Assembly (NCBI GenBank): GCA_964439795.1
Contig: CAYTRL010000001.1
Location: forward strand, 1 to 46,365
Direction of reading: 5' to 3'
DNA from: an uncultured Thermodesulfobacteriota bacterium
Lineage (GTDB): Bacteria; Desulfobacterota; DSWW01
DNA: 46,365 bases
The notes under the pieces are model-generated. The model was not told where the DNA came from, searched no databases, and saw only the letters and a program-made list of their open reading frames with translations. Positions 330-43,840 of the stretch are shown here, piece by piece. How positions within the stretch are numbered: the stretch's first letter is position 1; every line of letters begins with the position of its first letter. The translations under genes and the position numbers were made by a program.

Positions 330-740
330 CAGATCGGGCAGGGCCCCACCCTGCGGGGGCACATCCGGTCGTCATCCCCGTCCCCGCTTTCGTGGGGACA
401 AGCTCCAACGCGGATCCGGGGGCTGTCGGGCGGAGGGACAAACAGCCTCCTCCTTCCCCCTGCCCCTGGATTCCGGGTCATGCCCGGAATGTCGGAAAAG
501 TACAATGGGCTTGTCATCCCGGACTTGATCCGGGATCCACAGTTCAGAAGCACTTCTGGATGCCGGCCGGAGCTTGCCCCAGACTCCGATCCGGGGCCGG
601 CATAACAGAAAAAGACGTTTATCGACACCCGGAAAGTGGGAATCCAGGGGAGGCAGGGCAGGGTGCCGAAGAGCCTCCTCCTCGCCCCTGCCCCTGGATT
701 CTCCGGGTCATGCCCGGAATGACGGGTATGTACGCCTCCT
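330..740. repeat. Cluster of short palindromic REP-like intergenic repeats downstream of the HMGR-fusion gene
   Basis: Two ~52-bp direct copies (444-495 and 672-725: agcctcctcct.cccctgcccctggatt(c)ccgggtcatgcccggaatg.cgg), each containing the hairpin attccggg-N5-cccggaat. Hairpin gtcccc-N8-ggggac at about 379-398. The unit gtcatcccggacttgatccgggatcc... (512-575) recurs at 6848-6917. No convincing ORF in this region. Confidence 0.7.
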
Positions 741-754
741 TATCCGACAAGCTC

Positions 755-3553
755 CTAAGGGTGTATGCCCGTGGAGCGGGCCGCAACCAGCCCGCTGGCC
801 GTGAAGGCGTGGGAGATCGGTTGGAGATAGAACAGCATGGGTCTCGGACCGTACATCTCCGGCTTGCACTCCCAACTCCCGTTGGCCCGCTGACGGTCCA
901 TGAGAAAGGAGACTGCCTGACGGATCACCCCCCGGTAGCGGTCCGGGTCCACGCGGCAGAGTTCGGAGACCGCGATCCCGGTGGAGCTTGCACAGGAACT
1001 GGTGCCGGGGATGATCCCCCAGCCGCCATCACTGTTTACCGCCGACATCAGCGCCGCCCGGCCCTTGATGGCCGCCTGGCTTCCGGCGGGAAGGCCCCGC
1101 AGAAGAGCGGACTGAACATAAGGGAAGTTGCGGCAGAGTCCGCCCCTCCACCCGCCGTCCAGGTCCTGGTGCTCGCCGATCCACTGCACCGCCCTCTTCA
1201 TGCTGATTTCCCCATCCTGCCCACAGGCGGTGACGGCTTCCAGAATGTGCCCCAGAACCTCGGGAACCACGGCGTCTCCCGCGGACTGCCACGTGGTCCA
1301 CAGGCCCATGGCCTCCTGGTTCCGGCCGAGATAAGAGAGCCCGGAGCCCAGGGCGTTCTTAATCCTTTCCGCAATCTCCGGGTCCAGCTGGATCTTTTTG
1401 GCGTCGTTCAGGGCCAGAAGTGTGTGTGCTGTGGATTCGTTGTCTGAGATGATTCCCGGCGAATAGCCCCACCCGCCGTCCTCGTTCTGGGACCGGACCA
1501 GAAAAGCCAGGGCCTGAGCCAGGGCCTGGCTCTGGAATTCTTTGTTGTCGATAAACGCGCGAACGATCATGGACGTAGCCCACATGTCCAGGTTCACGTA
1601 CGACCAGAACCCCTGATCGTCCTGTGCCTGCACCAGGTACGAGGCCGCTTTCCGTGCTTCCACCGAGCGGTTGGTTTCCAGGAACGCAAGAAAGGCCATG
1701 GCCGTGGATACCGGGTTGTTCCAGATGGAGCCGTCGTTCCACTGCAACTCGGGCAGCAGACCGGCCACGGTCTTGTCGCCCAGGAGCACGCGCACGGAGA
1801 GCAGGTCGGACAGGGCCCAGGGTTTCAGGGACTTCCTTTTCTCCTCGGAATCGGTGTGGGACTGAAGCTGTTTGAGGATCTGCTCCTTGCGACGAAAGCT
1901 GCTCATGGACCGCTCGGTGGACGTGGCCAGGGCGGCCAGGATCTCGGTCTTGCGCATGTAGATCGGGTCAAACAGCAGGGGGTCGGACAGGTCGATGGCA
2001 CCGAACCTCTCCATGGCAAGGGAGTACGCCATCTCTTCGTAAATCTCCGCCACCCGGTGGTGGTTCTGCACGGCCTGTCCCCGGAGCCACAGCCTCGCCT
2101 GCTGCACCGTGGCTTCGTGTTCCCCGGACCGGCCCAGGGCCACGGCCACGATGGCCGTTTCAAAGATTCTCGGGCTGGAAGAGCCGGACCATTTCCCACT
2201 GGCCTCCTGGGTGTCCAGGGCAAACCCCACCGCCTTGTTGATCGCTCTCGTCAATCCACCGTCTGGTCCCCGCAGCTCGTTCAGGGCTGCCTGCACGGCG
2301 TTGGTGGTGATCTCCCCCGTCTGCACCGCCTGGCGAACCACGTGCTGCAGTTCGTCACCCCGCGCCCCCAGGCCCAGGGCGATGCTCCGGGCGTGCAGGG
2401 ACATGTGTCCCCGCTGGATCCCCTCGGAGGCCAAGGCCCGTACCGCGGCCAGGTTCTGGGCGATTCCCACGGCGGCGGCGACCCGCGCGAGATCCGACGC
2501 TTTTTCGATCTTCAACATCTTCAAGCAGGCCTGCGCCACGGGGTTGATCGACACGCCCCCCCCCACGATGCCCACGGCCATGGGGAGGGTCAGCTTGCCC
2601 GCCACGAACCGGCCGCCCTCCTCGTCCTCTTCGATCCGCCACACGGACAGGGGTTTGTAGCTTCCCTCCCGGCTGGCAAATGCGTGGGCCCCGGATTCGA
2701 TGCTCCTCCAGTCGTTCCCACAGGCGATGATCACGGAATCCACACCGTTCATGATCCCTTTGTTGTGTGTGGCGGCCCGGTACGGGTCGATCTCGGCGAT
2801 CCGGGATGCGGCCACGATCCCCTCGGCCACCCGTTCCGCGGTGAAGTTCTTGGTGACGAACGCGTTGATAGGGATCCGCACACGGCTGGTCACGCAGCGT
2901 CGGTCCGCCAGGTTGGAAAGGATCTTGAGGCCGGGTTTTCCGCCGGTCAACTCCGCAAAGGTGCCGGCCATGGCCTCGCAGGCCGTGTTGATGAGGTTCG
3001 CGCCCATGGCGTCCCGACAGTCGAGAACGATGTGCACCACCGCGTGACCGGCCGGGGCATCCACCACCCGGAACACCACGTCTCTGGCCCCGCCGCCCCT
3101 TGCCTTGAGGCGGGGATGGATCTGGTCGATCTGGCGGATGAGTTTCTCCTTTTCCGCCTCTATCTTCTTTCCTGCCGCATCCAGATCCGGAACGCCCCGC
3201 ATCTCGATCTGTCCGATCATCTCGGGCTCGTCACACTCTGTGAAGATGCCTCCCCCCTCCCGGGCGAACTTCGCACCGTTGGAGGCCGCTGCGATGACGG
3301 AAGGCTCCTCCACCGCCATGGGCACCAGGACCGTCTTCCCGTCGATGATGAAGTTGGTTCCCAGCCCCAGGGGAAGAAAGGTTACGCCGATCACGTTTTC
3401 CACGGTGGCCGAGGCAACGCGGACCCCCTCCTGAAAGGCCAGCAACAGGGAACTGTCCTTCTCGCTGAGGTCCCCGCGCTGGATCAGCAGGTCGTGCCGC
3501 TCCTCAACCGTCAGATTCCGGAACCCGGAAAGGGCTGAAGTGTCTTTCGCCAT
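755..3553 (-). CDS. Fusion protein: N-terminal class II HMG-CoA reductase plus a C-terminal ~500-aa QW-repeat (squalene-hopene cyclase / prenyltransferase alpha-alpha toroid-like) domain
   Basis: Continuous frame. ATG at 3553 (MAKDTSAL) is preceded by GGAGGA about 7 nt upstream, and the 20 codons the ORF track adds before it are unlikely to be real. HMGR motifs: ENVIG, EEPSVIAAAS, DCRDAMGANLIN, DPYRAATHNKGIMNG, GNDWR, VGIVGGG, EGIQRGHMSLHAR. The C-terminal half has 7 repeats of the type QNEDGGWGY, QDLDGGWRGG, NSDGGWGI and RANGSWE. Confidence 0.9.
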   Translation of the reverse strand: MAKDTSALSGFRNLTVEERHDLLIQRGDLSEKDSSLLLAFQEGVRVASATVENVIGVTFLPLGLGTNFIIDGKTVLVPMAVEEPSVIAAASNGAKFAREGGGIFTECDEPEMIGQIEMRGVPDLDAAGKKIEAEKEKLIRQIDQIHPRLKARGGGARDVVFRVVDAPAGHAVVHIVLDCRDAMGANLINTACEAMAGTFAELTGGKPGLKILSNLADRRCVTSRVRIPINAFVTKNFTAERVAEGIVAASRIAEIDPYRAATHNKGIMNGVDSVIIACGNDWRSIESGAHAFASREGSYKPLSVWRIEEDEEGGRFVAGKLTLPMAVGIVGGGVSINPVAQACLKMLKIEKASDLARVAAAVGIAQNLAAVRALASEGIQRGHMSLHARSIALGLGARGDELQHVVRQAVQTGEITTNAVQAALNELRGPDGGLTRAINKAVGFALDTQEASGKWSGSSSPRIFETAIVAVALGRSGEHEATVQQARLWLRGQAVQNHHRVAEIYEEMAYSLAMERFGAIDLSDPLLFDPIYMRKTEILAALATSTERSMSSFRRKEQILKQLQSHTDSEEKRKSLKPWALSDLLSVRVLLGDKTVAGLLPELQWNDGSIWNNPVSTAMAFLAFLETNRSVEARKAASYLVQAQDDQGFWSYVNLDMWATSMIVRAFIDNKEFQSQALAQALAFLVRSQNEDGGWGYSPGIISDNESTAHTLLALNDAKKIQLDPEIAERIKNALGSGLSYLGRNQEAMGLWTTWQSAGDAVVPEVLGHILEAVTACGQDGEISMKRAVQWIGEHQDLDGGWRGGLCRNFPYVQSALLRGLPAGSQAAIKGRAALMSAVNSDGGWGIIPGTSSCASSTGIAVSELCRVDPDRYRGVIRQAVSFLMDRQRANGSWECKPEMYGPRPMLFYLQPISHAFTASGLVAARSTGIHP

Positions 3554-3801
3554 TGTTTCCTCCTCATTCACGGGATATCGATAAATGTACTGAGTTCCAA
3601 GTGAAAATGTCAACGAAGCGGCGGCTTGTCTGATGGCCCTGGATCGATTATGCTCGAAAGACGCTCCTAAGAACTCGTTGAAAAATGAGGCTTATGGAGA
3701 CTGTTGAAAAAGCCAATGCCACCCCTGTACACGAGTGCAAAAAGAGGTCGCTTTTTCATATGTTCAGGGTCCCGAGCATCCCACTCCGCAGGAGAACGAA
3801 C

Positions 3802-4839
3802 ATGAACCAGACCGAGCAGCGAAAAATGGAGCACATCCGGATCTGCCTCGAAAAGAAGGTGGACACCGGAGATCCCCTCTTCGATGAGGTCACTCTGGTC
3901 CATCAGACACTCAACGATCTGGACCTCGAGGCTGTGGATTGCTCGCAGACCTTTCTGGGAAAACGGCTGGATTTTCCCTTGCTTATCGCTGGGATGACCG
4001 GGGGCTGCCGGGAAGCCAGAGAGATCAACCTGGCCCTGGCCGGGGCCGCGGAACGGAAGGGGGTGGCCTTCGGGGTGGGTTCCCAGCGTGCCATGATCGA
4101 AAACCCGGACCTCACCGATACCTTTGCCGTGCGGGAGGCGGCGCCGACGACCCCCCTTCTGGGGAACCTCGGGATTACGGCCCTGAGAAAATACCCGCTT
4201 TCCCGGGTTCACCAGGCCGTAGAGAGTATCGGAGCGGATGCCCTGTGCGTGCATATCAACCCTGCCCAGGAACTGTTTCAGCATGAGGGGGACCTGGATT
4301 TTTCCGGCTGCCCGGAGGCGCTCCGAAGGCTCTGTGAGGACGCCGGGTACCCGGTGATCGCCAAGGAGGTGGGAACCGGTACCCGCCGGGAAAGCGCCCT
4401 GCTTCCGGAACAGTGGGGGGGGCTGGCCATCGACCTGGGGGGCCTGGGGGGGACCAGCTGGGTGCTCGTGGACAGCATCCGTTCCGGAATGGATTCAAGC
4501 CGGTTCCGTGTCTGGGGAATCCCCACCGCGGCCTCCATCCTGGAGGCCGGGGTCGCGGGCGTTCCGCTGATTGCCACGGGCGGCGTACGCAACGGCCTGC
4601 ACATGGCCAAGGCCGTTCTGCTCGGTGCGGATCTTTGCGGAATCGCCCTGCCGTTCATCCGGATCCTGGACCAGAAGGGGGTGGAGGGGGTGGATGGATA
4701 CATCGATACCCTGAAGCGTGAGTTCCGCTATGCCCTCTACTTGACGGGCTCGGTGAACGTGGCGGATTTCCGCCGGAAGAAGCCGGTGCTGGGCGCACGC
4801 ATTCTGGAATGGGTCCGGCAGCGCGAGCTTGCTCTCTAA
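3802..4839 (+). CDS. fni: Type 2 isopentenyl-diphosphate delta-isomerase (FMN-dependent IDI-2)
   Basis: Start MNQTEQRKMEHIRI at ATG 3802 with GGAGA 6-7 nt upstream. Motifs: LLIAGMTGG, GVGSQR, VHINPAQEL, PVIAKEVGTG, GGLGGTSW, IATGGVRNGLHMAKAVLLGA. 345 aa, typical for fni. Confidence 0.9.
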   Translation: MNQTEQRKMEHIRICLEKKVDTGDPLFDEVTLVHQTLNDLDLEAVDCSQTFLGKRLDFPLLIAGMTGGCREAREINLALAGAAERKGVAFGVGSQRAMIENPDLTDTFAVREAAPTTPLLGNLGITALRKYPLSRVHQAVESIGADALCVHINPAQELFQHEGDLDFSGCPEALRRLCEDAGYPVIAKEVGTGTRRESALLPEQWGGLAIDLGGLGGTSWVLVDSIRSGMDSSRFRVWGIPTAASILEAGVAGVPLIATGGVRNGLHMAKAVLLGADLCGIALPFIRILDQKGVEGVDGYIDTLKREFRYALYLTGSVNVADFRRKKPVLGARILEWVRQRELAL

Positions 4840-6144: not shown

Positions 6145-6813
6145 TTGGCGTGCCTTTCCTTTATGCAGGTAGTGGTCCTGGTGGCGGCGGTCATTGCCTC
6201 GGTTTTTTCCATTTACACACGATACCGGAACGAACCGCTTTACACCCTTGTCAAACCGATCCCCATGTTCCTGATCATCTCCCTCTTCTTCATGAACCTG
6301 GTGTCCATATCACCCACCTCCACCTTTCCCTACCTGATCTTCCTGGGACTGATCGCCGGGGTGGGCGGGGATATCCTGCTCCTGTCTCCCAAGCGGTTCC
6401 TCGCCGGCCTCATCGCCTTCCTCCTGGGCCACATCCTCTACATCACGGGGTTCGCAACCGTGGCGATCTCCCTGCCGCCGGTCCTGATCCTGGCCCCCTT
6501 TGCCGTCACCCTCACTTTCGGCGTCATTCTGCTGGGGAAGATGGAGGAATCGGCGAGAAAGAAATACCGGATCCCCCTGCTCGTCTACATGGTCGCCATC
6601 ACGTTGATGTTCATCACGGCCCTGAACTTCGACCGGAACACGGGGGCGGAATTCCCCTTCTTCACACTGGGCTCCCTGCTTTTCTGCATATCCGACGGTG
6701 TGCTGGCCTGGAACCGGTTTTACCGGCCCTTCCGGGCGGCACAGGCCATCATCCTGACGACCTACTACTCCGCACAGATCCTGATCGGTTTCAGGGCCAT
6801 GTGCTTCCTCTAA
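6145..6813 (+). CDS. YhhN-family integral membrane protein (lysoplasmalogenase-like), paralog 1
   Basis: 222 aa, all hydrophobic helices. TTG start at 6145 with GGGAGA 8 nt upstream (alternative ATG at 6163). Conserved YhhN-like C-terminus FCISDGVLAWNRF...YYSAQILI. Same length and architecture as the ORF at 34601-35269. Confidence 0.75.
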   Translation: MACLSFMQVVVLVAAVIASVFSIYTRYRNEPLYTLVKPIPMFLIISLFFMNLVSISPTSTFPYLIFLGLIAGVGGDILLLSPKRFLAGLIAFLLGHILYITGFATVAISLPPVLILAPFAVTLTFGVILLGKMEESARKKYRIPLLVYMVAITLMFITALNFDRNTGAEFPFFTLGSLLFCISDGVLAWNRFYRPFRAAQAIILTTYYSAQILIGFRAMCFL

Positions 6814-6847: not shown

Positions 6848-6917
6848 GTCATTCCGGACTTGATCCGGAATCCAGCATTTTCAAGCACCGCTGGATCCCG
6901 GCCTTCACCGGGATGAC
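6848..6917. repeat. REP-like palindromic repeat, same family as 512-575
   Basis: gtcattccggacttgatccggaatcc...ctggatcccggccttcaccgggatgac, compared with gtcatcccggacttgatccgggatcc...ctggatgccggcc at 512-575. Internal hairpin attccgga-N6-tccggaat. Confidence 0.7.
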
Positions 6918-10452: not shown

Positions 10453-10690
10453 GCGACGTTGGGCTCGGTCCGTGTCGCTACGATGACCTTCAAGGTCTAT
10501 CTCGCGACCCGGCCCTTCACCCGCCTTGCATACGAGCACTTCTTGCCCGCCGGAACAGAATAGAAAACCCTTACTATTTCCTTCCTTTTGGAAACTTCAG
10601 AACCGAAACATTGAGTTCCACGGGTGAGGGGGTAAGCCAGGCGGCCGCTGGGGAGTTCCCGGAGGACGCAGGGGCCGGTTCAGGTCTTTT
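10453..10690. repeat. Composite ~230-bp intergenic repeat, copy A
   Basis: Shares two blocks with 43590-43840: caa(a)ggtct.tctcgcgacccgg.ccttcacccgccttgcat...gcacttcttg.ccgccggaa, then about 70 nt later agccaggcggccgctggggagtt(t)cccg.aggacgc. Begins 26 nt after the cobO stop. Confidence 0.75.
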
Positions 10691-10946
10691 GAAGGCCCCA
10701 AGGACGAGGGAAGCTCCCCCGGACGCCCCCATCTGCTGCGTTCCCCCTTGCCGCGTCGCTGCGGCGACCTACGGTCGCTCCAACGTACGAAAAGTACGCC
10801 TCCGCTCCTCGGCTGCGGGGCGCCTTGCATATGGACCTTTCTCGAAAGCCGAAGCGAAAGGGTGGGGGAAATAAGGAACACGGGTGGCACCGATCTCGTT
10901 ATAGAAACCGGGTTCTTGCAGGAAAGGAATCTGATCTGGGAAGAAG

Positions 10947-11148
10947 CGGCGTTGGGCTCGTTCCGTATCGCTGCGACGACCTCAAAGGTCTGTCTCGCGA
11001 TCCGGCCCTTCACCCGCCTTGCATCCCCGCGATTTCTGCATGCCTACAACAGGCAAGCGTTCCGTCAAGTAGTTTAAGAAATCGCGTTCTTTACAGGCAC
11101 TTCTTGCCCGCTGGAATCGAATCATGAACCCTGTATTCTCAACAACCT
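10947..11148. repeat. Composite intergenic repeat, copy B (first block only, with a ~60-nt insertion)
   Basis: gcgttgggctcgttccgtatcgctgcgacgacctcaaaggtctgtctcgcgatccggcccttcacccgccttgcat ... ggcacttcttgcccgctggaatcgaatc. Ends at the stop codon of the convergent VWA gene. Confidence 0.7.
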
Positions 11149-27635: not shown

Positions 27636-28334
27636 TCAGAGCCAGGAAGCGTCCCGGATCTCCGGAGCCGCCTCGCACACCTTCACCACCTCTTTGAGCT
27701 TGTCGAGGTACGCGTCCCCGCCCTTTGACTGGAAGAGGTGCACCGCCTGCATGCAAGTCCATATGTTCCGGCCCAGGTCGATCACCTTCCTCATGGGCCG
27801 GGGGACGTTCTCCCCCCGGTAGGGGCTGGGGCCCGACGCCTCCAGCTTCCGGGCCACCTTTTCCAGTTCCCCCGGGATCCGGGTCACGTGGTTCACCGTG
27901 GAAAAGGTGTAGGAGAGACCGGAGAGCATGGAGTTGTCGTTGCCGTTGAACTTGGTGCGGTGGTCGTTCTTGTAGATGACCAGGGGCTTGCCCGCGGCAA
28001 ATGCCACGGCGGTCTCCACCACCCCCCCCTCGTCGGGCACCCGGCCGTTCATGTTCAGCACCAGCCAGTCGCAGCCCTCCAGGATCTGAAAGATGTCCAG
28101 AGCGAAGATCGCCTTGCCCACGATCCTGTTCAGGCTCCGGAACGCCTTGTTCGTCAGGCGCGGGTCGTTCACCGCCTTCATGACAAACGGTTCCAGGCCG
28201 TCCCGGTGCGGGAGGAACGTGTCGTAGCCCGCCTCCTCCAGAACGTCGGCAATGGCGGTCATGCCCGCGATCTCCTCGGGGCAGAACAGCGGCCCGGAAC
28301 AATACACGCGTGTTCGTTTTTGCTTTTCCTTCAC
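27636..28334 (-). CDS. Nucleoside 2-deoxyribosyltransferase-family protein
   Basis: RVYCSGPLF...DWLVLNMNGRVPDEGGVVETAVAFAAGKPLVIY matches the YxAGPLF ... DxGTxxExGxAxAxGKP pattern. GTG start overlaps the upstream stop (GTGA), with GGGAGG 6 nt upstream. Confidence 0.75.
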   Translation of the reverse strand: MKEKQKRTRVYCSGPLFCPEEIAGMTAIADVLEEAGYDTFLPHRDGLEPFVMKAVNDPRLTNKAFRSLNRIVGKAIFALDIFQILEGCDWLVLNMNGRVPDEGGVVETAVAFAAGKPLVIYKNDHRTKFNGNDNSMLSGLSYTFSTVNHVTRIPGELEKVARKLEASGPSPYRGENVPRPMRKVIDLGRNIWTCMQAVHLFQSKGGDAYLDKLKEVVKVCEAAPEIRDASWL

Positions 28335-29788
28335 GGTGACCTCCCTGGGTCGAGGACCGCGGCCGCGGAGATCTCCAGGGGGCGGAAGATCATGTCCACG
28401 TACCGCTGTTCGTCACCCGGCTCGAAGTCCGGATCGATGGGAAAGATATAGGTGGTGAACTCGAGCGGCTTTCCATGCTCGATCTTGTGAAAGTCCTTCA
28501 CGCGGTAGCCCGTGGATGCGTAGGCCCTGAGCGGCGGGTCGTCCTTGGGTCGGAAGCCGTCCACCATGTTGTCCATGTAGTAGAGCCGGATGTCCAGCGT
28601 GCGGAACCCCTCCCCGAAGGTGAGGATGTTCATCCAGCCCCCGGGCGGTCCGTAGAGCAGGCTCCACTTGTAGAGGGCGGGGTCCATCGCCTGTTCCTGC
28701 GGGGACATCACGCCGTCCACCAGGCACGTGTCCTCCCGGTTCCGGGCGTTCATCCAGTGCATGCCCATGGTGTTACGGTTCAGGTCGGTGGTGAAGATCG
28801 ACCGGGACCGTTTGCCGTACTTCACCAGCATCTTCGGAACGGTCAGCGTTCCATTGAAATAGAAGAAGTCGGGGTAGTAGAAGCTATCCGTGTCCAGGGC
28901 CGCGCCGGACAGCCTCTTTACGATGAACTCCGGGAGTGGAATGCCGGCCAGCCGTACGTTGTTCCGTATTCTCCGGACGACCCGCACGGGTCCGTCGATC
29001 TGCCCCAGCCGTTTGGGGATGATGTTTTCCAGGGTGAAGTCGAAGTGCAGGATCCCCAAACGTATGTCCACGATGGAGTGGAAGGTCCTCATGATGTTCG
29101 GCCCCTCCTTTCCTTCGTACACGATGTGCCAGCCGCTCTGGGCCACCGGCTTGTCCGGATCGGTAAACGCGGCATGGTAATGGCTGGAAACCACGTGCAC
29201 CTCGGGCTTGCCGCCGTCGGCCTTCCGGACCCTGTAATCCACGAAATTCTCCGGGGAGAGGGCGGTGGGGGCTGAAAACGAAAGCAGGTAGGCCCAGGCC
29301 GAGGTTCCGTCCCGGGGGTCCAGTGCACGGATCTCCACGCCCCTGCCGGTTCCCGCCGGCCAGGTTCCGGCCGGTGCCCGGTCCCCCATGTGGCGTGCCA
29401 GCAGCACGAACTCGTCCCCGTGGCTGAACACGCCGAAGGAGGGTGCGTCCGAGTAGTTTCCTTCCTCGTCCCTCATCTTGCCCCGCAGGAGACCCTGCGT
29501 GAGGATGAGTTCCCCCAGCGGACCCCGCTCATCCACCTGAAACGGGATACCCAGGAAGCTTCCGTCCCGGTACGCCATCACCCGGAGGTCCCCCAGGGGC
29601 ATCCCGTCGAATACCCCCTGCAGTTCGCGGTTGTTCACGATGACCGGGTCCGGGAACCTCCGCTGGTGCTGGGGGTCCGGCGGGGGCGTGCTGTCCCCAT
29701 CGGACGAGCAGAAACCTTCGGTTCCCGCCAGAAACGCCAGGAGGATCGCCAGGAGCGCGGCCGATGCTTTTCTCATGGTTGCCAGCAT
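28331..29788 (-). CDS. Exported protein of unknown function (~485 aa)
   Basis: Long ORF with normal amino-acid composition and a signal peptide MLATMRKASAALLAILLAFLAG. I recognise no family motif. Start is uncertain among 29827, 29788 and 29776; 29788 has the best RBS spacing. Confidence 0.7.
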   Translation of the reverse strand: MLATMRKASAALLAILLAFLAGTEGFCSSDGDSTPPPDPQHQRRFPDPVIVNNRELQGVFDGMPLGDLRVMAYRDGSFLGIPFQVDERGPLGELILTQGLLRGKMRDEEGNYSDAPSFGVFSHGDEFVLLARHMGDRAPAGTWPAGTGRGVEIRALDPRDGTSAWAYLLSFSAPTALSPENFVDYRVRKADGGKPEVHVVSSHYHAAFTDPDKPVAQSGWHIVYEGKEGPNIMRTFHSIVDIRLGILHFDFTLENIIPKRLGQIDGPVRVVRRIRNNVRLAGIPLPEFIVKRLSGAALDTDSFYYPDFFYFNGTLTVPKMLVKYGKRSRSIFTTDLNRNTMGMHWMNARNREDTCLVDGVMSPQEQAMDPALYKWSLLYGPPGGWMNILTFGEGFRTLDIRLYYMDNMVDGFRPKDDPPLRAYASTGYRVKDFHKIEHGKPLEFTTYIFPIDPDFEPGDEQRYVDMIFRPLEISAAAVLDPGRSP

Positions 29789-29813
29789 GTTTCTTTTCTT
29801 CCGGCCATTCTCG

Positions 29814-30392
29814 TCAATCGACCCCATCCTCCGGGGGAGGGAACCGGTTCAGGAAGAAGTTGTCCTCCAGGGGCCTTCGTACCCGGGCCGACCGGGAAAC
29901 TGCCTGCTGCTTTTCGTTGAGCGTGGACAGGTCCCCGGGGGCACCCACGGCGATCAGGATCATCACCGTGAAATCCTCCGGGATCTGGAAGGATTTTCGG
30001 ATCAGGTCCGGCTGAAACCCGGCCATGGGACGGGCCACCAGGCCCAGTTCCGTGGCCTGGAGCAGGATGTTCTGCACCGCCATGCCCAGGTCGAACAGGT
30101 AATATTCCCTGCCGTCTCCCATGTGGCAGTCCAGGTCCTTCCTGGAGAAACCGATGATGAGAAGGGGGGCGGTCCGGGCCCAGTCGTTCCCCGGGGCAAG
30201 CGCCTCCCGTCCTTTTTCCAGTGCCTCCGGGTCATCCAGCACCAGGAAGCGCCACGGCTGGTGGTTCATGCAGGATGCGGAGAGCTGTGCGGCCTCCATG
30301 AGCGCCTTCTTGTGCGCTTGTTCCAGCGGTTCCGGGGAAATCGCCCGGAAGGCGGACCGTTTTTTCAACAGATCCAGAAATTGGGTTTCCAT
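29814..30392 (-). CDS. Nitroreductase-family protein
   Basis: LLKKRSAFRAISPEPL...AAQLSASCMNHQPWRFLVL. 192 aa. Confidence 0.8.
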   Translation of the reverse strand: METQFLDLLKKRSAFRAISPEPLEQAHKKALMEAAQLSASCMNHQPWRFLVLDDPEALEKGREALAPGNDWARTAPLLIIGFSRKDLDCHMGDGREYYLFDLGMAVQNILLQATELGLVARPMAGFQPDLIRKSFQIPEDFTVMILIAVGAPGDLSTLNEKQQAVSRSARVRRPLEDNFFLNRFPPPEDGVD

Positions 30393-30417: not shown

Positions 30418-30510
30418 GGGGTCAGGTCTTCATTCTACATTTTTCGTCTATCCGAACAAGTTCTCCAGCGCGGCACCCACGAGAAAAATGTAGAATGAAG
30501 ACCTGACCCC
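30418..30510 (-). repeat. 93-nt hairpin element, copy 1 (perfect 28-bp AT-rich stem, 37-nt loop)
   Basis: ggggtcaggtcttcattctacatttttc (30418-30445) is the exact reverse complement of gaaaaatgtagaatgaagacctgacccc (30483-30510). The element's reverse complement is about 90% identical to 39506-39598. It sits 6 nt downstream of the methyltransferase stop codon. Confidence 0.85.
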
Positions 30511-31280: not shown

Positions 31281-33599
31281 TCAGAGCAGGTCCCCGATCT
31301 CTTCGATCCGGTCCAGGGGGTGCACACACGTATCCAGGCACGAACCCGGCAAGGGCGGCAGGCCACGGACCAGGAGGTCCAGGGGGTGGCCCTCACCGAA
31401 CAGGTTGGCGATCATGTGGTTCAGGTTGCCCATGCAGAAGCAGTCGTCCTCCCGGATGGCCTGGAACTCTTCCCGCCTCCAGTAGTAGCAGTCGCTCGTG
31501 GTGTAGAGGTAGCCGTACTCATAACTGGTGGGGGTTTCCCGATGGCGGGCGATCCGCTCCGCCGGCCATCGGTAATCCCCCTCCTGCTCCGCGATGATCG
31601 CTTCCGCGGAGCGGCGGATGTCCAGGGCCTCCCGGAACACGGTCAACGCCCGTTCCTCCCCCTGGGGGTCCAGGCCCAGCCGGTGCTTTCGGCGGAGCAC
31701 CGTTCCCTCGTTCAGGCGGCGTACGTGCTGCACCCGGAGTGCGGTCACCTGGATGCCCCGCTTCACCTCCCGGTACCACCTGTGAACCCGTTCCGGAATG
31801 AGGGGCTCGACGGCCTCGACGCGTTCCGTGAACGCGTCGTACGTTTCCTCCAGGAGACGGAGCTTCTGAAAGTCGGTGGCCTCGAACGATGCAAGCTCTT
31901 CCGGGGTCATGGCACGGATCTCCTGGAACAGGACCCTGCGCGGCTGGAAGTTGATCCCCGCCAGAAGCTCCCCGAAGTCGTCGGCCGAGTCCCAGCCGAT
32001 CAGGTAGGCGATGAGGTTCTCCTCCAGGAGGTCCCGGCCCTGCTCTTCAACGAGGTCCACCAGCAGCCGGTGCATGGGATCGGCCCCCTGCCCGAAGATC
32101 CGTGTGAAGCGGCCGAGAACCTCCTGCCAGGGGGTCTCCGGCTCGTAAGCGAAGCCCAGCGTGGCCCAGTCGTTCAGCCAGTATCCCCACTCGAACCCGC
32201 TGGCGAAGAGCACCTGCCCGTCCATGCCGCTTCCGGCCAGGCGGTTCAGGTCGTTCCAGCGCGAGAAGACGTAGTGGGGCAGGTAGATGGGAATGTCCAC
32301 GTCAAAGCTCACCCAGTAAGCGGTTTCCGGGTAGTACAGCACGGTTCTCTCGCCGATTTCCCCGAGGAGGAACTCCCGCATGTCGTGGAAGTTCTCCTGC
32401 CCGTAGGTGGGGGCCTTGCGGTAGAGGTCGTAGAACTGCACCGAGTGCGGCATGACTCCCACGCGCGGGTCCGCGATGCCCGGGAGAAAGTTGAAGTTGA
32501 TGTCGCCGAAGTGCGGGGCCGTCTGGTCGGTGGTGCAGTGCACCTTGGTGATCAGGTCAACGCCGTAAACCGTGTCCAGGTGCTCCGCGGTAAAGTTGAG
32601 CATGTCCATGGTGCGTACGTCGTCCACCGGGATCGCCTCGGCGGCTCCCAGTTCCACGTTGATGACGTCAAAAGGGGCCTGGAGGATCCGGGCCAGGTTT
32701 TCCGTGATCTGGGGCTGAAACGGGGCGGTGGGGTCCGGCGCCAGGGCGTACGAATTCTGCTGGATGAACTCCAGGGGGGCATCGATCCCCACCCTCAGGC
32801 CCCGGGCGTGGGCGTAGTCGATGATCTGTGCGGCGTGCGGAACCCACGCCTCCATGGAGACGGTGTCCTGCAGCACCCACTGGAAATAGTTCTGCCGGTT
32901 GGCCACCAGCCAGTCCACGTAACGTTCCGCTTCCCGCAGGTGATCCGCCGAGGGGACGAGAAGGGAGTCCATGAGCTCCACCGGGTGCATGGTGTGCACC
33001 GAGGTGCCCCGCCAGGGGTACCCGGGGTTCCGGGTCTTGTCCAGGGTCGGAGGAAGGGAGAGAGCGTCCGGAACATAGGGGTCTTCCGGGTGGTAGAAGC
33101 CGAACCCCAACTGCTCCAGCAGGGCATAGACCGCGTACTGGTTGCCCAGGTCGTCCGGTCCGGCGCCGGCAAGGACCGACAAACCGTTACTCGTTCCCCG
33201 GCGAAGGATGTACCCGCCGGGTTCCAGTGTCGCGATCTCCGTTTCCGGGATCAGGGAAAGGCCCGGGTCGCCGGGATTCAGGGCCAGGACCAGGTCGCCG
33301 GGACCGGTCCCGGAGACGTCCGCGGCGGACAGCCGGATGACGGTAAGGCCGGGGACCCTCCGGAGCAGCGCCAGGCACTGGTCCAGGGCGATCCGCAGTC
33401 CGGTTTCCGGGGCTTCCGGTCCGACAACCGCGACCGAGGTGACGGGTTCACCGGGGCCGAGGTCCGTGAGCGCCGGGTCCGGGTCCGAGGAGCAGGCCGG
33501 GATCGAGAGGACGAGGAGGGCACCCATGGCAGCGGATCGGAGAAGGCCTCTTTTGCAGGGGCTGGAGAGTCGTGACGGTTGATCGGCTCGTATCTTCAT
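31281..33599 (-). CDS. Large lipoprotein of unknown function, possibly glycoside-hydrolase-like
   Basis: ATG 33599 (MKIRADQ) with AAGGAG upstream. Lipobox SIPAC. The segment NQYAVYALLEQLGFGFYHPED resembles N-terminal domains of GH20/GH67/DUF4838-type proteins. The functional call is weak. Confidence 0.6.
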   Translation of the reverse strand: MKIRADQPSRLSSPCKRGLLRSAAMGALLVLSIPACSSDPDPALTDLGPGEPVTSVAVVGPEAPETGLRIALDQCLALLRRVPGLTVIRLSAADVSGTGPGDLVLALNPGDPGLSLIPETEIATLEPGGYILRRGTSNGLSVLAGAGPDDLGNQYAVYALLEQLGFGFYHPEDPYVPDALSLPPTLDKTRNPGYPWRGTSVHTMHPVELMDSLLVPSADHLREAERYVDWLVANRQNYFQWVLQDTVSMEAWVPHAAQIIDYAHARGLRVGIDAPLEFIQQNSYALAPDPTAPFQPQITENLARILQAPFDVINVELGAAEAIPVDDVRTMDMLNFTAEHLDTVYGVDLITKVHCTTDQTAPHFGDINFNFLPGIADPRVGVMPHSVQFYDLYRKAPTYGQENFHDMREFLLGEIGERTVLYYPETAYWVSFDVDIPIYLPHYVFSRWNDLNRLAGSGMDGQVLFASGFEWGYWLNDWATLGFAYEPETPWQEVLGRFTRIFGQGADPMHRLLVDLVEEQGRDLLEENLIAYLIGWDSADDFGELLAGINFQPRRVLFQEIRAMTPEELASFEATDFQKLRLLEETYDAFTERVEAVEPLIPERVHRWYREVKRGIQVTALRVQHVRRLNEGTVLRRKHRLGLDPQGEERALTVFREALDIRRSAEAIIAEQEGDYRWPAERIARHRETPTSYEYGYLYTTSDCYYWRREEFQAIREDDCFCMGNLNHMIANLFGEGHPLDLLVRGLPPLPGSCLDTCVHPLDRIEEIGDLL

Positions 33600-33778
33600 G
33601 GATGCAGGCTCCTTGCAGGAAGAGAAAGAAAGACATCCTATTTTATCAGACAGTCCGAGTGGCTGTACACAGCATGCCGGGAACACTGTCACGCCTTTAT
33701 CCCGATGGATGAAAGATTTTCAGGAAAAACGTAGCATGGAGTACCCACATCGGAACCGGAAGGTGGAAAGGAGAGGAG

Positions 33779-34600: not shown

Positions 34601-35269
34601 ATGAAGATTGCTTTGCTCCCCCTCATTCCGCTGGCGTTCACGGCCTTCTGCCTGATCCGTGCGGAGTTTGCCGACGACCGGCGGCGGATCTATCTTTGGA
34701 AACCCCTCTCCACCTCCCTGGTGATCCTGACGGCCCTGCTCTCGCTGTGGGACGGCGGGACCCCGAACCTCACCTACACCGCCGGGGTTCTGGTGGGCCT
34801 GGCGCTGTGCATGGCCGGGGACATGATGCTCATGTTCCCGCAGAACCGGAAGGCGTTTCTGGCAGGACTCATCTTTTTCCTTCTGGGACATGTGGCCTAC
34901 GCGGTCACCTTCGCCGTCCTGGGCGGGTTCCACGGTGAGGATTGGGTTTCCGGACTGCTTCTTCTCGTGGTCGGGGTGGCCTTCTTTCTCTACCTGCGGC
35001 CTTCCCTGGGGACGATGAAGGGCCCGGTGATCGTGTATATCCTGGTGATATCGTTCATGGTCAACCGGGGGGTGGCCCTGTTCGAGAGCGAGGCGTTCAC
35101 TCCGGTCCAGGCCTGGATGATCGCCCTGGGTGCGATCCTGTTCTACGTGTCCGACGTGATCCTTGCCCTGGCCCGTTACGCCAGACCGTTCCGGTACAAC
35201 CGGATCAGCCTGGCCTTCTACTATGCCGGGCAGGCCCTCATCGCCCTGGCCGCGTCGTATGCCGGGTGA
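34601..35269 (+). CDS. YhhN-family integral membrane protein (lysoplasmalogenase-like), paralog 2
   Basis: 222 aa polytopic protein. FYVSDVILALARY...YYAGQALI parallels FCISDGVLAWNRF...YYSAQILI of the paralog at 6145-6813. Confidence 0.75.
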   Translation: MKIALLPLIPLAFTAFCLIRAEFADDRRRIYLWKPLSTSLVILTALLSLWDGGTPNLTYTAGVLVGLALCMAGDMMLMFPQNRKAFLAGLIFFLLGHVAYAVTFAVLGGFHGEDWVSGLLLLVVGVAFFLYLRPSLGTMKGPVIVYILVISFMVNRGVALFESEAFTPVQAWMIALGAILFYVSDVILALARYARPFRYNRISLAFYYAGQALIALAASYAG

Positions 35270-39505: not shown

Positions 39506-39598
39506 GGGGCCAGGTCTTCATTTTACATTTTTCTCGTAGATGCCGTGCCGGACAACTCGTTCGGATAGACGAAAAATGTAAAATGAAGACCTGACCCC
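39506..39598 (+). repeat. 93-nt hairpin element, copy 2 (27/28-bp stem)
   Basis: ggggccaggtcttcattttacatttttc ... gaaaaatgtaaaatgaagacctgacccc. Starts 5 nt after the uvrA TAG. The loop is 31/37 identical to the reverse complement of the copy-1 loop. Confidence 0.85.
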
Positions 39599-43589: not shown

Positions 43590-43840
43590 TCGGCTTCCGA
43601 TACACGCCCTCAAAGGTCTGTCTCGCGACCCGGACCTTCACCCGCCTTGCATCCTTCCTCCCCCTTGCATACGTGCACTTCTTGTCCGCCGGAATCGAAT
43701 CGAGAAAATCCGATACATTCCCGCAATCCCCATAAGGTGAATACAGGAACTGAACAATAGAGGCTCTTGAGGGAAGCGGGGAAAAGCCAGGCGGCCGCTG
43801 GGGAGTTTCCCGTAGGACGCGTTCCGTTTACAGGTCCGGT
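43590..43840. repeat. Composite ~230-bp intergenic repeat, copy C
   Basis: ctcaaaggtctgtctcgcgacccggaccttcacccgccttgcat...gcacttcttgtccgccggaatcgaatc, then agccaggcggccgctggggagtttcccgtaggacgc. Begins right after the lpxA stop, and its distal end overlaps the 3' end of the convergent lipoprotein gene. Confidence 0.75.

What the first reader, a model, noticed from the sequence alone, without database searches (positions are those of the whole stretch)
755..3553. Class II HMG-CoA reductase fused in one frame to a terpene-cyclase/prenyltransferase-like QW-repeat domain
**Seen in the sequence**
- One uninterrupted 932-codon frame.
- Residues ~1-435 match the Pseudomonas mevalonii MvaA-type class II HMGR motif for motif: ENVIG, DAMGAN, DPYRAATHNKGIMNG, GNDWR, EGIQRGHMSLHAR.
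- The remaining ~500 residues carry at least seven spaced repeats: DTQEASGKWSG, QAQDDQGFWSY, RSQNEDGGWGY, RNQEAMGLWTTW, EHQDLDGGWRGG, AVNSDGGWGI, DRQRANGSWE.
- These repeats are characteristic of the alpha/alpha-toroid squalene-hopene cyclase / prenyltransferase superfamily.
- After the third repeat the sequence is ISDNESTAHTLLAL, where class II terpene cyclases carry DxDDTA. The acid motif is therefore only partly conserved (D-N-E-S).

**Context**
- I do not know a characterised HMGR with such a C-terminal domain.
- A type 2 IPP isomerase gene is transcribed divergently 248 bp away.
- No other mevalonate-pathway genes are in the window.

**Inference**
The fusion may physically couple the committed mevalonate step to a terpenoid-binding or cyclising module. 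The extra domain may instead be a regulatory or scaffolding domain.
Basis: partly seen in the sequence, partly recalled or inferred. Interest (0 to 1): 0.8.

Follow-up and report, generated by a model that had tools for sequence, protein, structure and literature searches.

The report
HMG-CoA reductase fused to terpene cyclase
An uncultivated bacterium makes its mevalonate-pathway enzyme HMG-CoA reductase as one polypeptide with a complete terpene-cyclase module whose catalytic aspartate has become a glutamate; the architecture was not found in the literature searched and may couple isoprenoid supply to terpenoid cyclisation or sensing.

Summary
Window 755-3553 (minus strand) is one 932-codon gene. 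Residues 1-429 are a complete class II HMG-CoA reductase. Residues 430-932 are a complete beta-gamma class II terpene-cyclase didomain, not a prenyltransferase toroid (AF2 pLDDT 93.6; TM about 0.8 to drimenyl diphosphate synthase SsDMS).

The fusion is real. About 20 full-length protein clusters share it at 57-90% identity, and dN/dS is about 0.10 in both halves. It is rare: one of 185,579 species-representative genomes, a Thermodesulfobacteriota MAG. In relatives the gene sits with mevalonate kinase, UbiD/AcnX-type enzymes, isopentenyl phosphate kinase and IDI2, so it appears to be the pathway's HMGR in an archaeal-type mevalonate pathway.

The cyclase module keeps counterparts of three of SsDMS's four diphosphate/Mg ligands and the acid-site scaffold. 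The general acid Asp is Glu (D-N-E-S). Of 61 positions conserved in both the fusions and the Asp-type stand-alone relatives, only four switched, and three of those are the acid, its neighbour, and the residue beside its His partner.

Best reading (about 0.43): a bifunctional enzyme with a non-canonical Glu-acid prenyl-diphosphate cyclase. Main rival (about 0.3): a non-catalytic prenyl-diphosphate sensor regulating HMGR. No description of the architecture was found. It is a new variant of known kinds.

The parts
755..3553 (-). Whole fusion gene, 932 codons plus TAG stop (755-757)
   Evidence: Full-length homologs P0001-P0021 at 57-90% identity.
2267..3553 (-). Class II HMG-CoA reductase module, residues 1-429, including the C-terminal flap. 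Catalytic-motif residues E83, K265, D281 and H383 are invariant in the family.
   Evidence: PF00368 E 1.3e-97; TIGR00532 345.6 bits against a cutoff of 259.95. Aligns 6-429 to residues 5-427 of the 428-aa P. mevalonii HMGR 1qax, E 5e-109. Invariant columns.
758..2266 (-). Beta-gamma class II terpene-cyclase-like didomain, residues 430-932, with six to seven QW-like repeats
   Evidence: AF2 pLDDT 93.6, pTM 0.92. Foldseek: SsDMS TM 0.76-0.82, SHC TMq 0.78. Profile against PDB: SsDMS E 1e-83 over the full length. dN/dS 0.096.
1430..1447 (-). Acid motif S703-D704-N705-E706-S707-T708, aligned to DxDD(T). E706 (codon 1436-1438) occupies the general-acid position of SsDMS D303 and SHC D376.
   Evidence: Both GAA and GAG are used at 706 among homologs.
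1247..1252 (-). G768-H769. H769 aligns with SHC H451, the acid's H-bond partner. G768 is one of only four family-specific switches (Ala to Gly).
1949..1954 (-). R534-K535, a basic pair at the position of SsDMS diphosphate ligand R132 (K535 aligns to R132)
   Evidence: Invariant in the fusions. The ligand list comes from PMC12232559.
1805..1807 (-). D583, at the position of SsDMS Mg2+ ligand E169
   Evidence: Invariant in the fusions.
842..844 (-). R904 of the GPRP motif, at the position of SsDMS diphosphate ligand R501
   Evidence: Invariant in every aligned relative.
3584..3613 (-). Sigma-70-like promoter (TTGACA-18-TACATT) upstream of the ATG, in the divergent intergenic region
   Evidence: This is a consensus match only.
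3685..4839 (+). Divergently transcribed type 2 IPP isomerase (probable start at 3802)
   Evidence: TIGR02151 332.8 bits against a cutoff of 281.3. The same pairing occurs in L001 and L083 and, downstream, in L084.

Best explanation
The gene encodes a single polypeptide with two modules. The architecture is close to certain (about 0.95). The mechanism proposed for the second module is inferred (about 0.43).

Module 1, residues 1-429, is a complete and catalytically intact class II HMG-CoA reductase. It makes mevalonate for an archaeal-type mevalonate pathway. In relatives the genes for MVK, an AcnX-type dehydratase, a UbiD-type decarboxylase, IPK and IDI2 lie next to the fusion gene.

Module 2, residues 430-932, starts directly where a normal HMGR ends. 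It is a complete beta-gamma class II terpene cyclase descended from Asp-type stand-alone prenyl-diphosphate cyclases, whose closest named member is myxobacterial. I propose that it is still a cyclase. It would bind a prenyl diphosphate with Mg2+ through K535/R534, D583 and R904. It would protonate the terminal C=C with Glu706, held by His769 and Asp704, and release a cyclic prenyl diphosphate. The D-to-E change is accommodated by smaller neighbours, T-to-S at 707 and A-to-G at 768.

The fusion ties production of this cyclase one-to-one to the pathway's committed enzyme. This parallels the HMGR-kinase and HMGR-polyprenyl-synthase fusions seen in the nearest HMGR relatives.

Shown: the architecture, fold, conservation, residue correspondences and genomic context. 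Inferred: ligand binding, catalysis, the substrate and the product.
For: Architecture and reality:
- Pfam and NCBIfam assign both halves.
- About 20 full-length homolog clusters exist.
- dN/dS is 0.099 for the HMGR half and 0.096 for the cyclase half in the closest pair.

Fold:
- pLDDT 93.6. The best structural matches are SsDMS, then SHC.
- The profile matches SsDMS end to end, E 1e-83.

Binding site:
- K535, D583 and R904 align to SsDMS R132, E169 and R501. The same columns are conserved in the nearest stand-alone family: R/K 46 of 50, E/D 37 of 51, R 43 of 46 (ligand list from PMC12232559).

Acid site:
- D704, H769, W658, E765 and W755 align to SHC D374, H451, W312, D447 and Y420.
- Of 61 columns conserved in both the fusions and the Asp-type stand-alones, 57 are identical and only 4 switched: D-to-E 706, T-to-S 707, A-to-G 768 and L-to-A 509.
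- There is synonymous codon turnover at 706, 707 and 768 with the residues kept.

Glu-type cyclases elsewhere sit in working terpene clusters:
- A Streptomyces DxETT clade of 13 clusters all keep Glu. Members are adjacent to, or overlap, class I terpene synthases.
- P0250 lies with polyprenyl synthases, an FAD enzyme, a P450 and a UbiA enzyme.

Ancestry and analogous fusions:
- The closest named stand-alone relative, P0125 (motif DNDT), is next to a class I terpene synthase.
- HMGR relatives are fused to other active isoprenoid enzymes, including at the same C-terminal junction.
- A UbiA prenyltransferase directly follows the fusion gene in L084 and L003.
Against: - The middle Asp is described as strictly conserved in class II cyclases. 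The SsDMS D303E variant was inactive or slow enough to crystallise with intact FPP (PMC12232559).
- No Glu-type beta-gamma cyclase has been shown to be active in anything I could read. P0292 is not the characterised CavC.
- One family member, P0002, has Gln at 706.
- None of the six neighbourhoods of the fusion contains a class I terpene synthase, P450 or phosphatase that would process a cyclic prenyl diphosphate.
- Fusing the first committed step to a late step gives no channelling benefit.
- All residue correspondences come from sequence and profile alignments at about 18-35% identity, not from an inspected 3D superposition.
Confidence: 0.43

Rival explanations
1. End-product sensor. The cyclase-derived module has lost turnover through the D-to-E change but still binds a prenyl diphosphate (FPP or GGPP class) with Mg2+. 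Because it is attached without a linker to the HMGR flap that closes over the active site, ligand occupancy would allosterically reduce HMGR activity. This would be feedback control of a class II HMGR, functionally analogous to the sterol-sensing control of eukaryotic HMGR.
For: - E706 is the same substitution that let SsDMS be crystallised with intact FPP-Mg2+.
- Counterparts of three of the four SsDMS diphosphate/Mg ligands (R132, E169, R501) and the pocket scaffold are retained.
- The module begins at residue 430, immediately after the complete flap, and the junction R428-G-P-D-x-G433 is invariant.
- No downstream terpenoid-tailoring genes occur in six neighbourhoods, and the gene behaves as the housekeeping pathway HMGR.
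- One natural Gln706 variant exists.
- Strong purifying selection shows the domain is used.
Against: - Glu is kept, with synonymous turnover, together with compensating S707 and G768 and the His partner. This is more than simple inactivation requires.
- Glu-type relatives sit in biosynthetic clusters.
- The same C-terminal junction is used for ordinary enzyme-enzyme fusions in related HMGRs, so it is not special.
- No inter-domain interface could be predicted: the full-length model has pTM 0.54.
- To my knowledge there is no precedent for allosteric domains on class II HMGR.
Confidence: 0.3
2. Structural role. The beta-gamma module is catalytically and allosterically silent. It serves as a scaffold for oligomerisation, for membrane association (as in monotopic SHC and OSC), or for docking other isoprenoid enzymes such as UbiA or PMT-type transferases, placing HMGR in a metabolon.
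For: - Vestigial, non-catalytic beta-gamma domains exist in plant class I diterpene synthases (my own knowledge; taxadiene synthase appears among the weak fold matches).
- Membrane polyprenyl-phosphate-using enzymes (UbiA, PMT_2, MBOAT) are frequent neighbours.
- The full-length model gives no fixed domain arrangement.
Against: - A pure scaffold would not need the diphosphate/Mg ligands, D704, H769 and the remodelled acid kept invariant.
- dN/dS equals that of the enzyme half.
- The closest structural relative, SsDMS, is not described as a membrane protein in the paper read.
- No transmembrane or signal-peptide feature is obvious from reading the sequence. This was not tested.
Confidence: 0.12
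3. Artefact: a misassembly, a missed stop or frameshift, or chimeric contigs joined two separate genes.
For: P0123 and P0124 look like separate pieces.
Against: - The same uninterrupted architecture occurs in about 20 independent clusters from JGI, ENA, NCBI and Logan assemblies on contigs up to 225 kb.
- The 'separate' pieces lie on an error-prone assembly where neighbouring genes are also split (L086), or on contigs of about 1.5-3 kb.
- The codon-level selection signature is the same across the junction.
Confidence: 0.01

Closest known systems
Drimenyl diphosphate synthase SsDMS (Streptomyces showdoensis; PDB 7XQ4, 7XR7, 8ZG0), a beta-gamma class II sesquiterpene cyclase
   Same: - Size of about 500 aa and the beta-gamma didomain fold (TM 0.76-0.82).
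- End-to-end profile match, E 1e-83.
- The positions of diphosphate/Mg ligands R132, E169 and R501 are occupied by K535, D583 and R904.
- The acid motif is in register.
   Different: - Only 18-19% identity.
- The general acid D303 is Glu here, D304 is Ser, and K133 is Thr.
- This module is fused to HMGR rather than stand-alone beside a Nudix hydrolase.
- Substrate and product are unknown.
Squalene-hopene cyclase (A. acidocaldarius, PDB 1SQC, 2SQC, 1GSZ)
   Same: - Double alpha-barrel fold and QW repeats.
- The DxDDTA-aligned motif.
- Equivalents of H451, W312, D447 and Y420 are retained.
   Different: - About 130 residues shorter.
- Scores far below the curated SHC and OSC cutoffs: 71.7 against 322.7 and 54.2 against 431.1.
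- Carries prenyl-diphosphate-type ligands.
- D376 is Glu, D377 is Ser, and W489 is Leu.
Stand-alone 'prenyltransferase/squalene oxidase repeat' proteins of the DNDT type (for example P0125, Polyangiaceae MAG)
   Same: - The nearest sequence relatives of the C-terminal module, at 28-38% identity over the full length.
- 57 of 61 jointly conserved positions are identical.
   Different: - They keep Asp at the acid position (48 of 54).
- They are not fused.
- P0125 is paired with a class I terpene synthase.
- None is characterised in anything I could find.
Class II HMG-CoA reductases (P. mevalonii 1QAX; 6DIO)
   Same: - Full-length alignment, E about 1e-109.
- All signature motifs and the flap are present.
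   Different: Those enzymes end at about residue 428. This one continues for a further 503 residues.
Natural HMGR fusions: E. faecalis MvaE (thiolase-HMGR), HMGR-GHMP kinase fusions (Myxococcota, Calditrichaceae), and HMGR-polyprenyl synthase (P0064)
   Same: - The principle is the same: the pathway's HMGR is fused to another isoprenoid enzyme.
- The nearest HMGR relatives, at about 50% identity, are such fusions, some at the same C-terminal junction.
   Different: The partner here is a late-pathway class II cyclase module with a non-canonical acid. I found no report of this pairing.
Bifunctional class II cyclase fusions (AsDMS cyclase-phosphatase; plant and fungal alpha-beta-gamma synthases)
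   Same: A class II cyclase module is joined to a second activity in one chain (PMC12232559).
   Different: Those partners act on the cyclase's substrate or product. HMGR acts many steps upstream.

Membership tests
Class II (bacterial-type) HMG-CoA reductase | Profile score above the curated family cutoff | tested here: met
   TIGR00532 345.6 bits against 259.95. PF00368 327.6 bits against 27.
Class II (bacterial-type) HMG-CoA reductase | Catalytic Glu, Lys, Asp and His (P. mevalonii E83, K267, D283, H381 from established knowledge) and the signature motifs | tested here: met
   E83, K265 (THNKG), D281 (GNDWR) and H383 (GHMSLHAR) are present and invariant in 18 sequences.
Class II (bacterial-type) HMG-CoA reductase | Complete fold, including the C-terminal flap | tested here: met
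   Aligns 6-429 to residues 5-427 of the 428-aa 1qax.
Class II (bacterial-type) HMG-CoA reductase | HMG-CoA to mevalonate activity, and cofactor preference | not testable with these tools
   Requires an enzyme assay.
Class II terpene cyclase (beta-gamma, SHC / diterpene / DMS superfamily) | Beta-gamma double alpha-barrel fold with QW repeats | tested here: met
   pLDDT 93.6. TM 0.76-0.82 to SsDMS and 0.78 to SHC. Six to seven QW-like repeats.
Class II terpene cyclase (beta-gamma, SHC / diterpene / DMS superfamily) | DxDD-type motif whose middle Asp is the general acid | tested here: not met
   The motif is D704-N-E706-S707, and Glu aligns to SsDMS D303 and SHC D376. Asp occupies this column in 122 of 142 representative homologs.
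Class II terpene cyclase (beta-gamma, SHC / diterpene / DMS superfamily) | An acid-activating partner and the surrounding scaffold (SHC H451, D374, W312, D447) | tested here: met
   H769, D704, W658 and E765 align to them, and H769, D704 and W658 are invariant in the fusions.
Class II terpene cyclase (beta-gamma, SHC / diterpene / DMS superfamily) | Protonation-initiated cyclisation activity | not testable with these tools
   Requires an assay with prenyl diphosphates.
Squalene-hopene / oxidosqualene cyclase | Curated equivalog or subfamily score | tested here: not met
   TIGR01787 71.7 against 322.7, TIGR01507 54.2 against 431.1, TIGR03463 29 against 851.
Drimenyl diphosphate synthase (SsDMS type) | Diphosphate/Mg2+ ligands R132, K133, E169 and R501 | tested here: inconclusive
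   Three of four positions are conserved in kind (K535, D583, R904), and K133 aligns to T536. Based on alignment only.
Drimenyl diphosphate synthase (SsDMS type) | Catalytic D303, and orthology | tested here: not met
   E706 sits at the D303 position. Identity is 18-19%.
Protein prenyltransferase beta subunit (single alpha/alpha toroid with a Zn site) | Family score and a single-toroid fold | tested here: not met
   PF00432 23.8 bits against 26.5. FTase and RabGGTase beta subunits match only at TMq 0.26-0.37, E about 1e-4, and cover one barrel.

The most novel reading that the evidence does not exclude
The cyclase-derived module is a built-in end-product sensor. It binds FPP- or GGPP-class prenyl diphosphates without turning them over, which would be the natural equivalent of the SsDMS D303E crystallographic trap. 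Through the directly attached flap it throttles HMGR. To my knowledge, that would be the first allosteric feedback domain on a class II HMG-CoA reductase, a bacterial functional analogue of sterol-sensing control, and a clear case of a terpene cyclase recruited as a pseudoenzyme receptor.
Probability: 0.3. Interest if true: 0.85.

Novelty: new variant of a known kind. Interest (0 to 1): 0.62.

Why it matters
**A new pairing.** Both halves belong to well-known enzyme families, but I found no description of this pairing. It joins the committed, flux-controlling step of isoprenoid supply to a late terpenoid-cyclase module in one chain.

**If the module is active.** It would establish Glu as a natural general acid in beta-gamma class II cyclases, against the view that the middle Asp is strictly conserved. 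It comes with a ready-made compensation hypothesis (E706, S707, G768) that can be tested by reversion mutants. It would also point to an unknown cyclic isoprenoid made in bulk by anaerobic Thermodesulfobacteriota.

**If the module is a sensor.** It would reveal a new regulatory logic for bacterial mevalonate pathways and offer a useful part for metabolic engineering: a self-limiting, or once de-regulated a non-limiting, HMGR.

**Side finding.** Relatives of this organism carry the archaeal-type (anhydromevalonate phosphate) mevalonate pathway. This bears on how that pathway is distributed among bacteria.

Tried and rejected
- **Misassembly or missed stop.** Rejected. There are about 20 independent full-length clusters, and dN/dS is the same on both sides of the junction.
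- **Stand-alone versions of the C-terminal domain in the same clade (P0022, P0023, P0121-P0124).** P0123 lies on a frameshift-ridden assembly where HMGR is split 346 + 87 aa directly upstream and neighbouring genes are also split. P0022, P0023, P0121 and P0122 are on contigs of about 1-3 kb and are probably fragments. P0124 (447 aa, still carrying a PF00368 hit, on a 21-kb contig) was not examined further.
- **Prenyltransferase beta-subunit identity.** Rejected on score and fold.
- **SHC or OSC orthology.** Rejected on curated cutoffs.
- **Vestigial, decaying domain.** Rejected: dN/dS 0.096 and 57 of 61 conserved positions retained.
- **P0292 (a Glu-type S. clavuligerus protein) equals the experimentally active CavC.** Rejected. 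Its neighbourhood lacks the Nudix hydrolase and the three P450s of the cav cluster, and the paper reports a DXDD motif for CavC. I therefore have no experimental proof that a Glu-type enzyme is active.
- **Full-length AF2 model for the inter-domain geometry.** Uninformative: pLDDT 75.9, pTM 0.54, from a shallow alignment and a monomer of an obligate oligomer.
- **The flap junction as special evidence for allostery.** Weakened, because related HMGRs carry ordinary enzymes at the same junction.
- **Literature searches for this fusion, and for Asp-to-Glu data in SHC and CPS.** Nothing on the fusion. 'D376E' occurred in none of the listed papers, and the CPS mutagenesis paper is not held.
- **Papers on the SsDMS F248 and Y505 variants, for pocket size.** Not in the library.
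- **Rfam scan of the window.** No hits.
- **An off-by-one column error in my first motif table.** Found and corrected.


Full report
**1. The observation**

The window carries one uninterrupted minus-strand ORF from ATG 3553 to TAG 755-757, 932 codons. The mechanical ORF list extends it to a TTG at 3613. That TTG is part of the -35 hexamer of a sigma-70-like promoter (TTGACA-18-TACATT, 3613-3584), and the homolog N-termini align with the ATG. An open frame of this length has a probability of about 1.6e-11 at this base composition, and GC3 is 0.82. Pfam assigns residues 16-388 to HMG-CoA_red (E 1.3e-97) and residues 635-911 to SQHop_cyclase_N and _C, both above their gathering scores. NCBIfam TIGR00532 (class II 'degradative' HMGR) scores 345.6 bits against a cutoff of 259.95.

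**2. The fusion is real, conserved and rare**

A search of 5.8 billion proteins returned about 20 clusters with the same full-length architecture at 57-90% identity, from JGI, ENA, NCBI and Logan assemblies on contigs up to 225 kb. The two halves are similarly conserved. In the closest pair for which I hold DNA, dN/dS is 0.099 for the HMGR half and 0.096 for the C-terminal half, at dS about 0.65.

Apparent stand-alone C-terminal pieces are mostly artefacts. P0123 lies in an assembly where HMGR is split 346 + 87 aa directly upstream and neighbouring genes are fragmented too. P0022, P0023, P0121 and P0122 sit on contigs of about 1-3 kb. P0124 (447 aa, on a 21-kb contig) was not examined.

At 50% clustering the whole family collapses to one representative among 1.84 billion. 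Among 185,579 GTDB species representatives only one genome has a close relative, an uncultured Thermodesulfobacteriota MAG (L003, 63% identity). All other hits are ordinary SHC-like proteins at about 25% identity.

**3. The HMGR half**

It aligns from residue 6 to 429 with residues 5-427 of the 428-residue P. mevalonii enzyme (E 5e-109), and equally well with 6DIO. It is therefore a complete class II HMGR including the C-terminal flap. The catalytic-motif residues E83, K265, D281 and H383 are invariant in the family. Assignment of these as the catalytic residues rests on established knowledge of P. mevalonii HMGR. The second module begins at residue 430 with essentially no linker, and the junction R428-G-P-D-x-G433 is invariant.

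**4. The C-terminal half**

It is not a single prenyltransferase-type toroid. An AlphaFold2 model of residues 430-932 is confident (pLDDT 93.6, pTM 0.92). [quoted passage not shown] Squalene-hopene cyclase follows (TMq 0.78), then OSC, Rv3377c and other class II cyclases. Protein prenyltransferase beta subunits match only weakly (TMq 0.26-0.37). A profile of the family matches SsDMS end to end at E 1e-83. SHC and OSC curated models are missed by a wide margin. The module is a complete beta-gamma class II terpene-cyclase didomain.

**5. The active site, residue by residue**

HMMER aligns S703-D-N-E706-S-T with SsDMS S-D301-V-D303-D304-T, and with S-D-V-E-D-T in the D303E crystal variant. Through a bona fide SHC the same column maps to SHC D376. 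Glu706 therefore sits exactly at the general-acid position.

PMC12232559 states that this 'middle' Asp is strictly conserved, and that the SsDMS Asp-to-Glu variant was used to capture an intact enzyme-FPP-Mg2+ complex. That paper also lists the SsDMS diphosphate/Mg ligands R132, K133, E169 and R501. In the profile alignment these correspond to K535 (with R534 adjacent), T536, D583 and R904. K535, D583 and R904 are invariant in the fusions.

The residues aligned to SHC's acid-site scaffold are retained: D374 to D704, H451 to H769, W312 to W658, D447 to E765, Y420 to W755 and Y495 to Y812. W489 is not retained; it aligns to L806.

**6. How unusual is the Glu, and what changed with it?**

In the 142 best representative homologs covering the motif, the acid column is Asp in 122, Glu in 3 (one being the fusion's own representative), and another residue in 17. 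In the 54 nearest stand-alone relatives it is Asp in 48 and never Glu. Those relatives keep the SsDMS-type diphosphate/Mg ligand columns: R/K 46 of 50, R 43 of 46, and E/D 37 of 51. They look like prenyl-diphosphate cyclases. The closest named one, P0125 (Polyangiaceae, motif DNDT), lies next to a class I terpene synthase.

I compared 18 fusions with 36 Asp-type stand-alones. Sixty-one columns are strongly conserved in both groups. Fifty-seven are identical and only four have switched: D-to-E 706, T-to-S 707, A-to-G 768 (directly beside H769), and L-to-A 509. Codons at 706, 707 and 768 vary synonymously while the residues stay fixed. A longer acid side chain combined with two smaller sequence neighbours reads as compensated remodelling of a maintained site, not decay.

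**7. Are Glu-type cyclases functional elsewhere?**

The evidence is circumstantial but points to yes.
- P0263 (D-V-E-T-T, Streptomyces) lies between class I terpene synthase genes.
- It belongs to a clade of 13 clusters, 41-100% identical, all with Glu.
- The S. clavuligerus member, P0292, overlaps a class I synthase gene on the megaplasmid.
- P0250 (D-S-E-D-T) is in an operon with two polyprenyl synthases, an FAD-dependent oxidoreductase, a P450 and a UbiA-methyltransferase.

I could not link any of these to an experiment. P0292 is not the characterised CavC.

**8. Genomic context**

In this window the only other isoprenoid gene is IDI2. In relatives the fusion gene is embedded in the pathway:

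| Locus | Homolog | Neighbours |
|---|---|---|
| L002 | P0018 | MVK (TIGR00549, 221 against 163), UbiD-family decarboxylase (TIGR00148, 348 against 245), AcnX large subunit and DUF126 small subunit (PRK03955, 171 against 163) |
| L085 | P0021 | MVK and archaeal-type isopentenyl phosphate kinase (NF040647, 175 against 120) |
| L084, L003 | P0016 | UbiA prenyltransferase, then IDI2 |
| L083 | P0001 | Syntenic with the window; two PMT_2 glycosyltransferases downstream |

MVK, an AcnX-type dehydratase, a UbiD-type decarboxylase and IPK together form the archaeal-type mevalonate pathway. This identification rests on established knowledge (Hayakawa et al. 2018, cited in PMC13001223). The fusion therefore appears to be the pathway's HMGR rather than an accessory copy, although no complete genome was examined for a second HMGR.

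The nearest HMGR relatives (about 50% identity; Myxococcota, Calditrichaceae) are themselves fused to other isoprenoid enzymes: a GHMP kinase at either end, or a polyprenyl synthase at the C-terminus.

**9. Interpretation**

The architecture is established. For the mechanism, two readings fit nearly equally well.

I favour, at about 0.43, a bifunctional enzyme whose second module is a non-canonical (D-x-E-S) class II prenyl-diphosphate cyclase. The reasons are:
- the whole binding and acid scaffold is kept;
- the switches beside the acid and its His partner look compensatory;
- Glu is itself under selection;
- Glu-type relatives live in biosynthetic clusters;
- related HMGRs are fused to genuine enzymes.

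Against this reading:
- the D303E precedent in SsDMS;
- the absence of any downstream tailoring enzyme in six neighbourhoods;
- one Gln706 variant, P0002;
- no experimental example of a Glu acid in this fold.

The main rival, at about 0.30, is a prenyl-diphosphate sensor that regulates HMGR through the directly attached flap. It explains the D-to-E change and the housekeeping context well. It has no precedent, and I could not obtain a confident inter-domain model (pTM 0.54). A purely structural role (about 0.12) fits poorly with the conserved pocket. An artefact is excluded.

**10. Novelty**

Full-text searches found no natural HMGR-terpene cyclase fusion. A 2026 review of bacterial isoprenoid pathways mentions only MvaE and IspDF as fusions. 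Public annotation calls these proteins simply 'hydroxymethylglutaryl-CoA reductase, degradative'. Natural acid-motif variants described so far (DxDD, DxDT, DxDM) all keep the middle Asp. I therefore class this as a new variant of known kinds: a new domain architecture with a non-canonical acid. It is moderately to highly interesting and directly testable.

**11. Limits**

- All residue correspondences are from sequence and profile alignments at low identity.
- The organism is known only through one named relative.
- Whether these genomes also have a MEP pathway or a second HMGR could not be checked.
- The literature library is incomplete. The primary SsDMS paper and the classical SHC and CPS mutagenesis papers were not readable.

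Noticed in passing
L002:12878-16850 and L085:5590-9263: Bacterial relatives (the one named is a Thermodesulfobacteriota MAG) encode the archaeal-type mevalonate pathway next to the fusion gene. The genes are MVK, a UbiD-family decarboxylase, AcnX large and DUF126 small subunits (a candidate phosphomevalonate dehydratase), and archaeal-type isopentenyl phosphate kinase.
   Followed up: partly
P0025, P0119, P0064: The nearest HMGR relatives are fused to other isoprenoid enzymes in varying order: GHMP kinase-HMGR (Sandaracinus), HMGR-GHMP kinase (Calditrichaceae), and HMGR-polyprenyl synthase (P0064).
   Followed up: partly
L088:8001-9572, L089:5402-6973, L092:9001-10566: A Streptomyces clade of stand-alone class II cyclase homologs (13 clusters) carries D-x-E-T-T, with Glu at the general-acid position. 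Members sit beside, or overlap, class I terpene synthase genes. One member lies on the S. clavuligerus megaplasmid. I found no characterisation.
   Followed up: partly
L090:1-9155 and L091:1-8357: Another Glu-type homolog, P0250 (D-S-E-D-T), lies in an operon with two polyprenyl synthases, an FAD-dependent oxidoreductase, a P450, an ABC1 kinase and a UbiA-methyltransferase fusion. This looks like a meroterpenoid or quinone-type cluster.
   Followed up: no
window 414-733; 513-568 and 6848-6903: Short intergenic repeats lie just downstream of the fusion gene. Two copies of about 90 nt are spaced 228 nt apart (78-88% identical), and a 56-nt element recurs at 6848-6903 (80%). They produce spurious ORFs with recurring peptide strings.
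   Followed up: no
window 30418-30510 and 39506-39598: A 93-nt palindromic element occurs twice (90% complementary). Each copy contains a 28-nt near-perfect hairpin with a 37-nt spacer. Both copies are intergenic. There is no Rfam match.
   Followed up: no
window 10453-10571, 10946-11132, 43604-43710: Three copies of a repeat of about 100-190 nt (74-94% identical) lie in non-coding stretches. There is no Rfam match. It may be a small mobile or regulatory element.
   Followed up: no
window 31281-33692 (-) and 28331-29827 (-): Two large ORFs with high GC3 (803 aa and 498 aa) have no Pfam match at E 0.05.
   Followed up: no
window 6145-6813 (+) and 34601-35269 (+): Two paralogous YhhN-family membrane protein genes lie in the window. 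The first is part of the block that is syntenic with L083 next to IDI2 and the fusion gene.
   Followed up: no
L086:6704-9230: In an error-prone long-contig assembly the fusion gene is called as three ORFs (346 + 87 + 409 aa). Domain-architecture surveys that rely on called proteins would miscount such cases as stand-alone cyclase-like genes.
   Followed up: yes
P0002 (89% identical homolog), residue 706: One family member has Gln instead of Glu at the general-acid position (SDNQST). It could be a real variant or a sequencing error.
   Followed up: no
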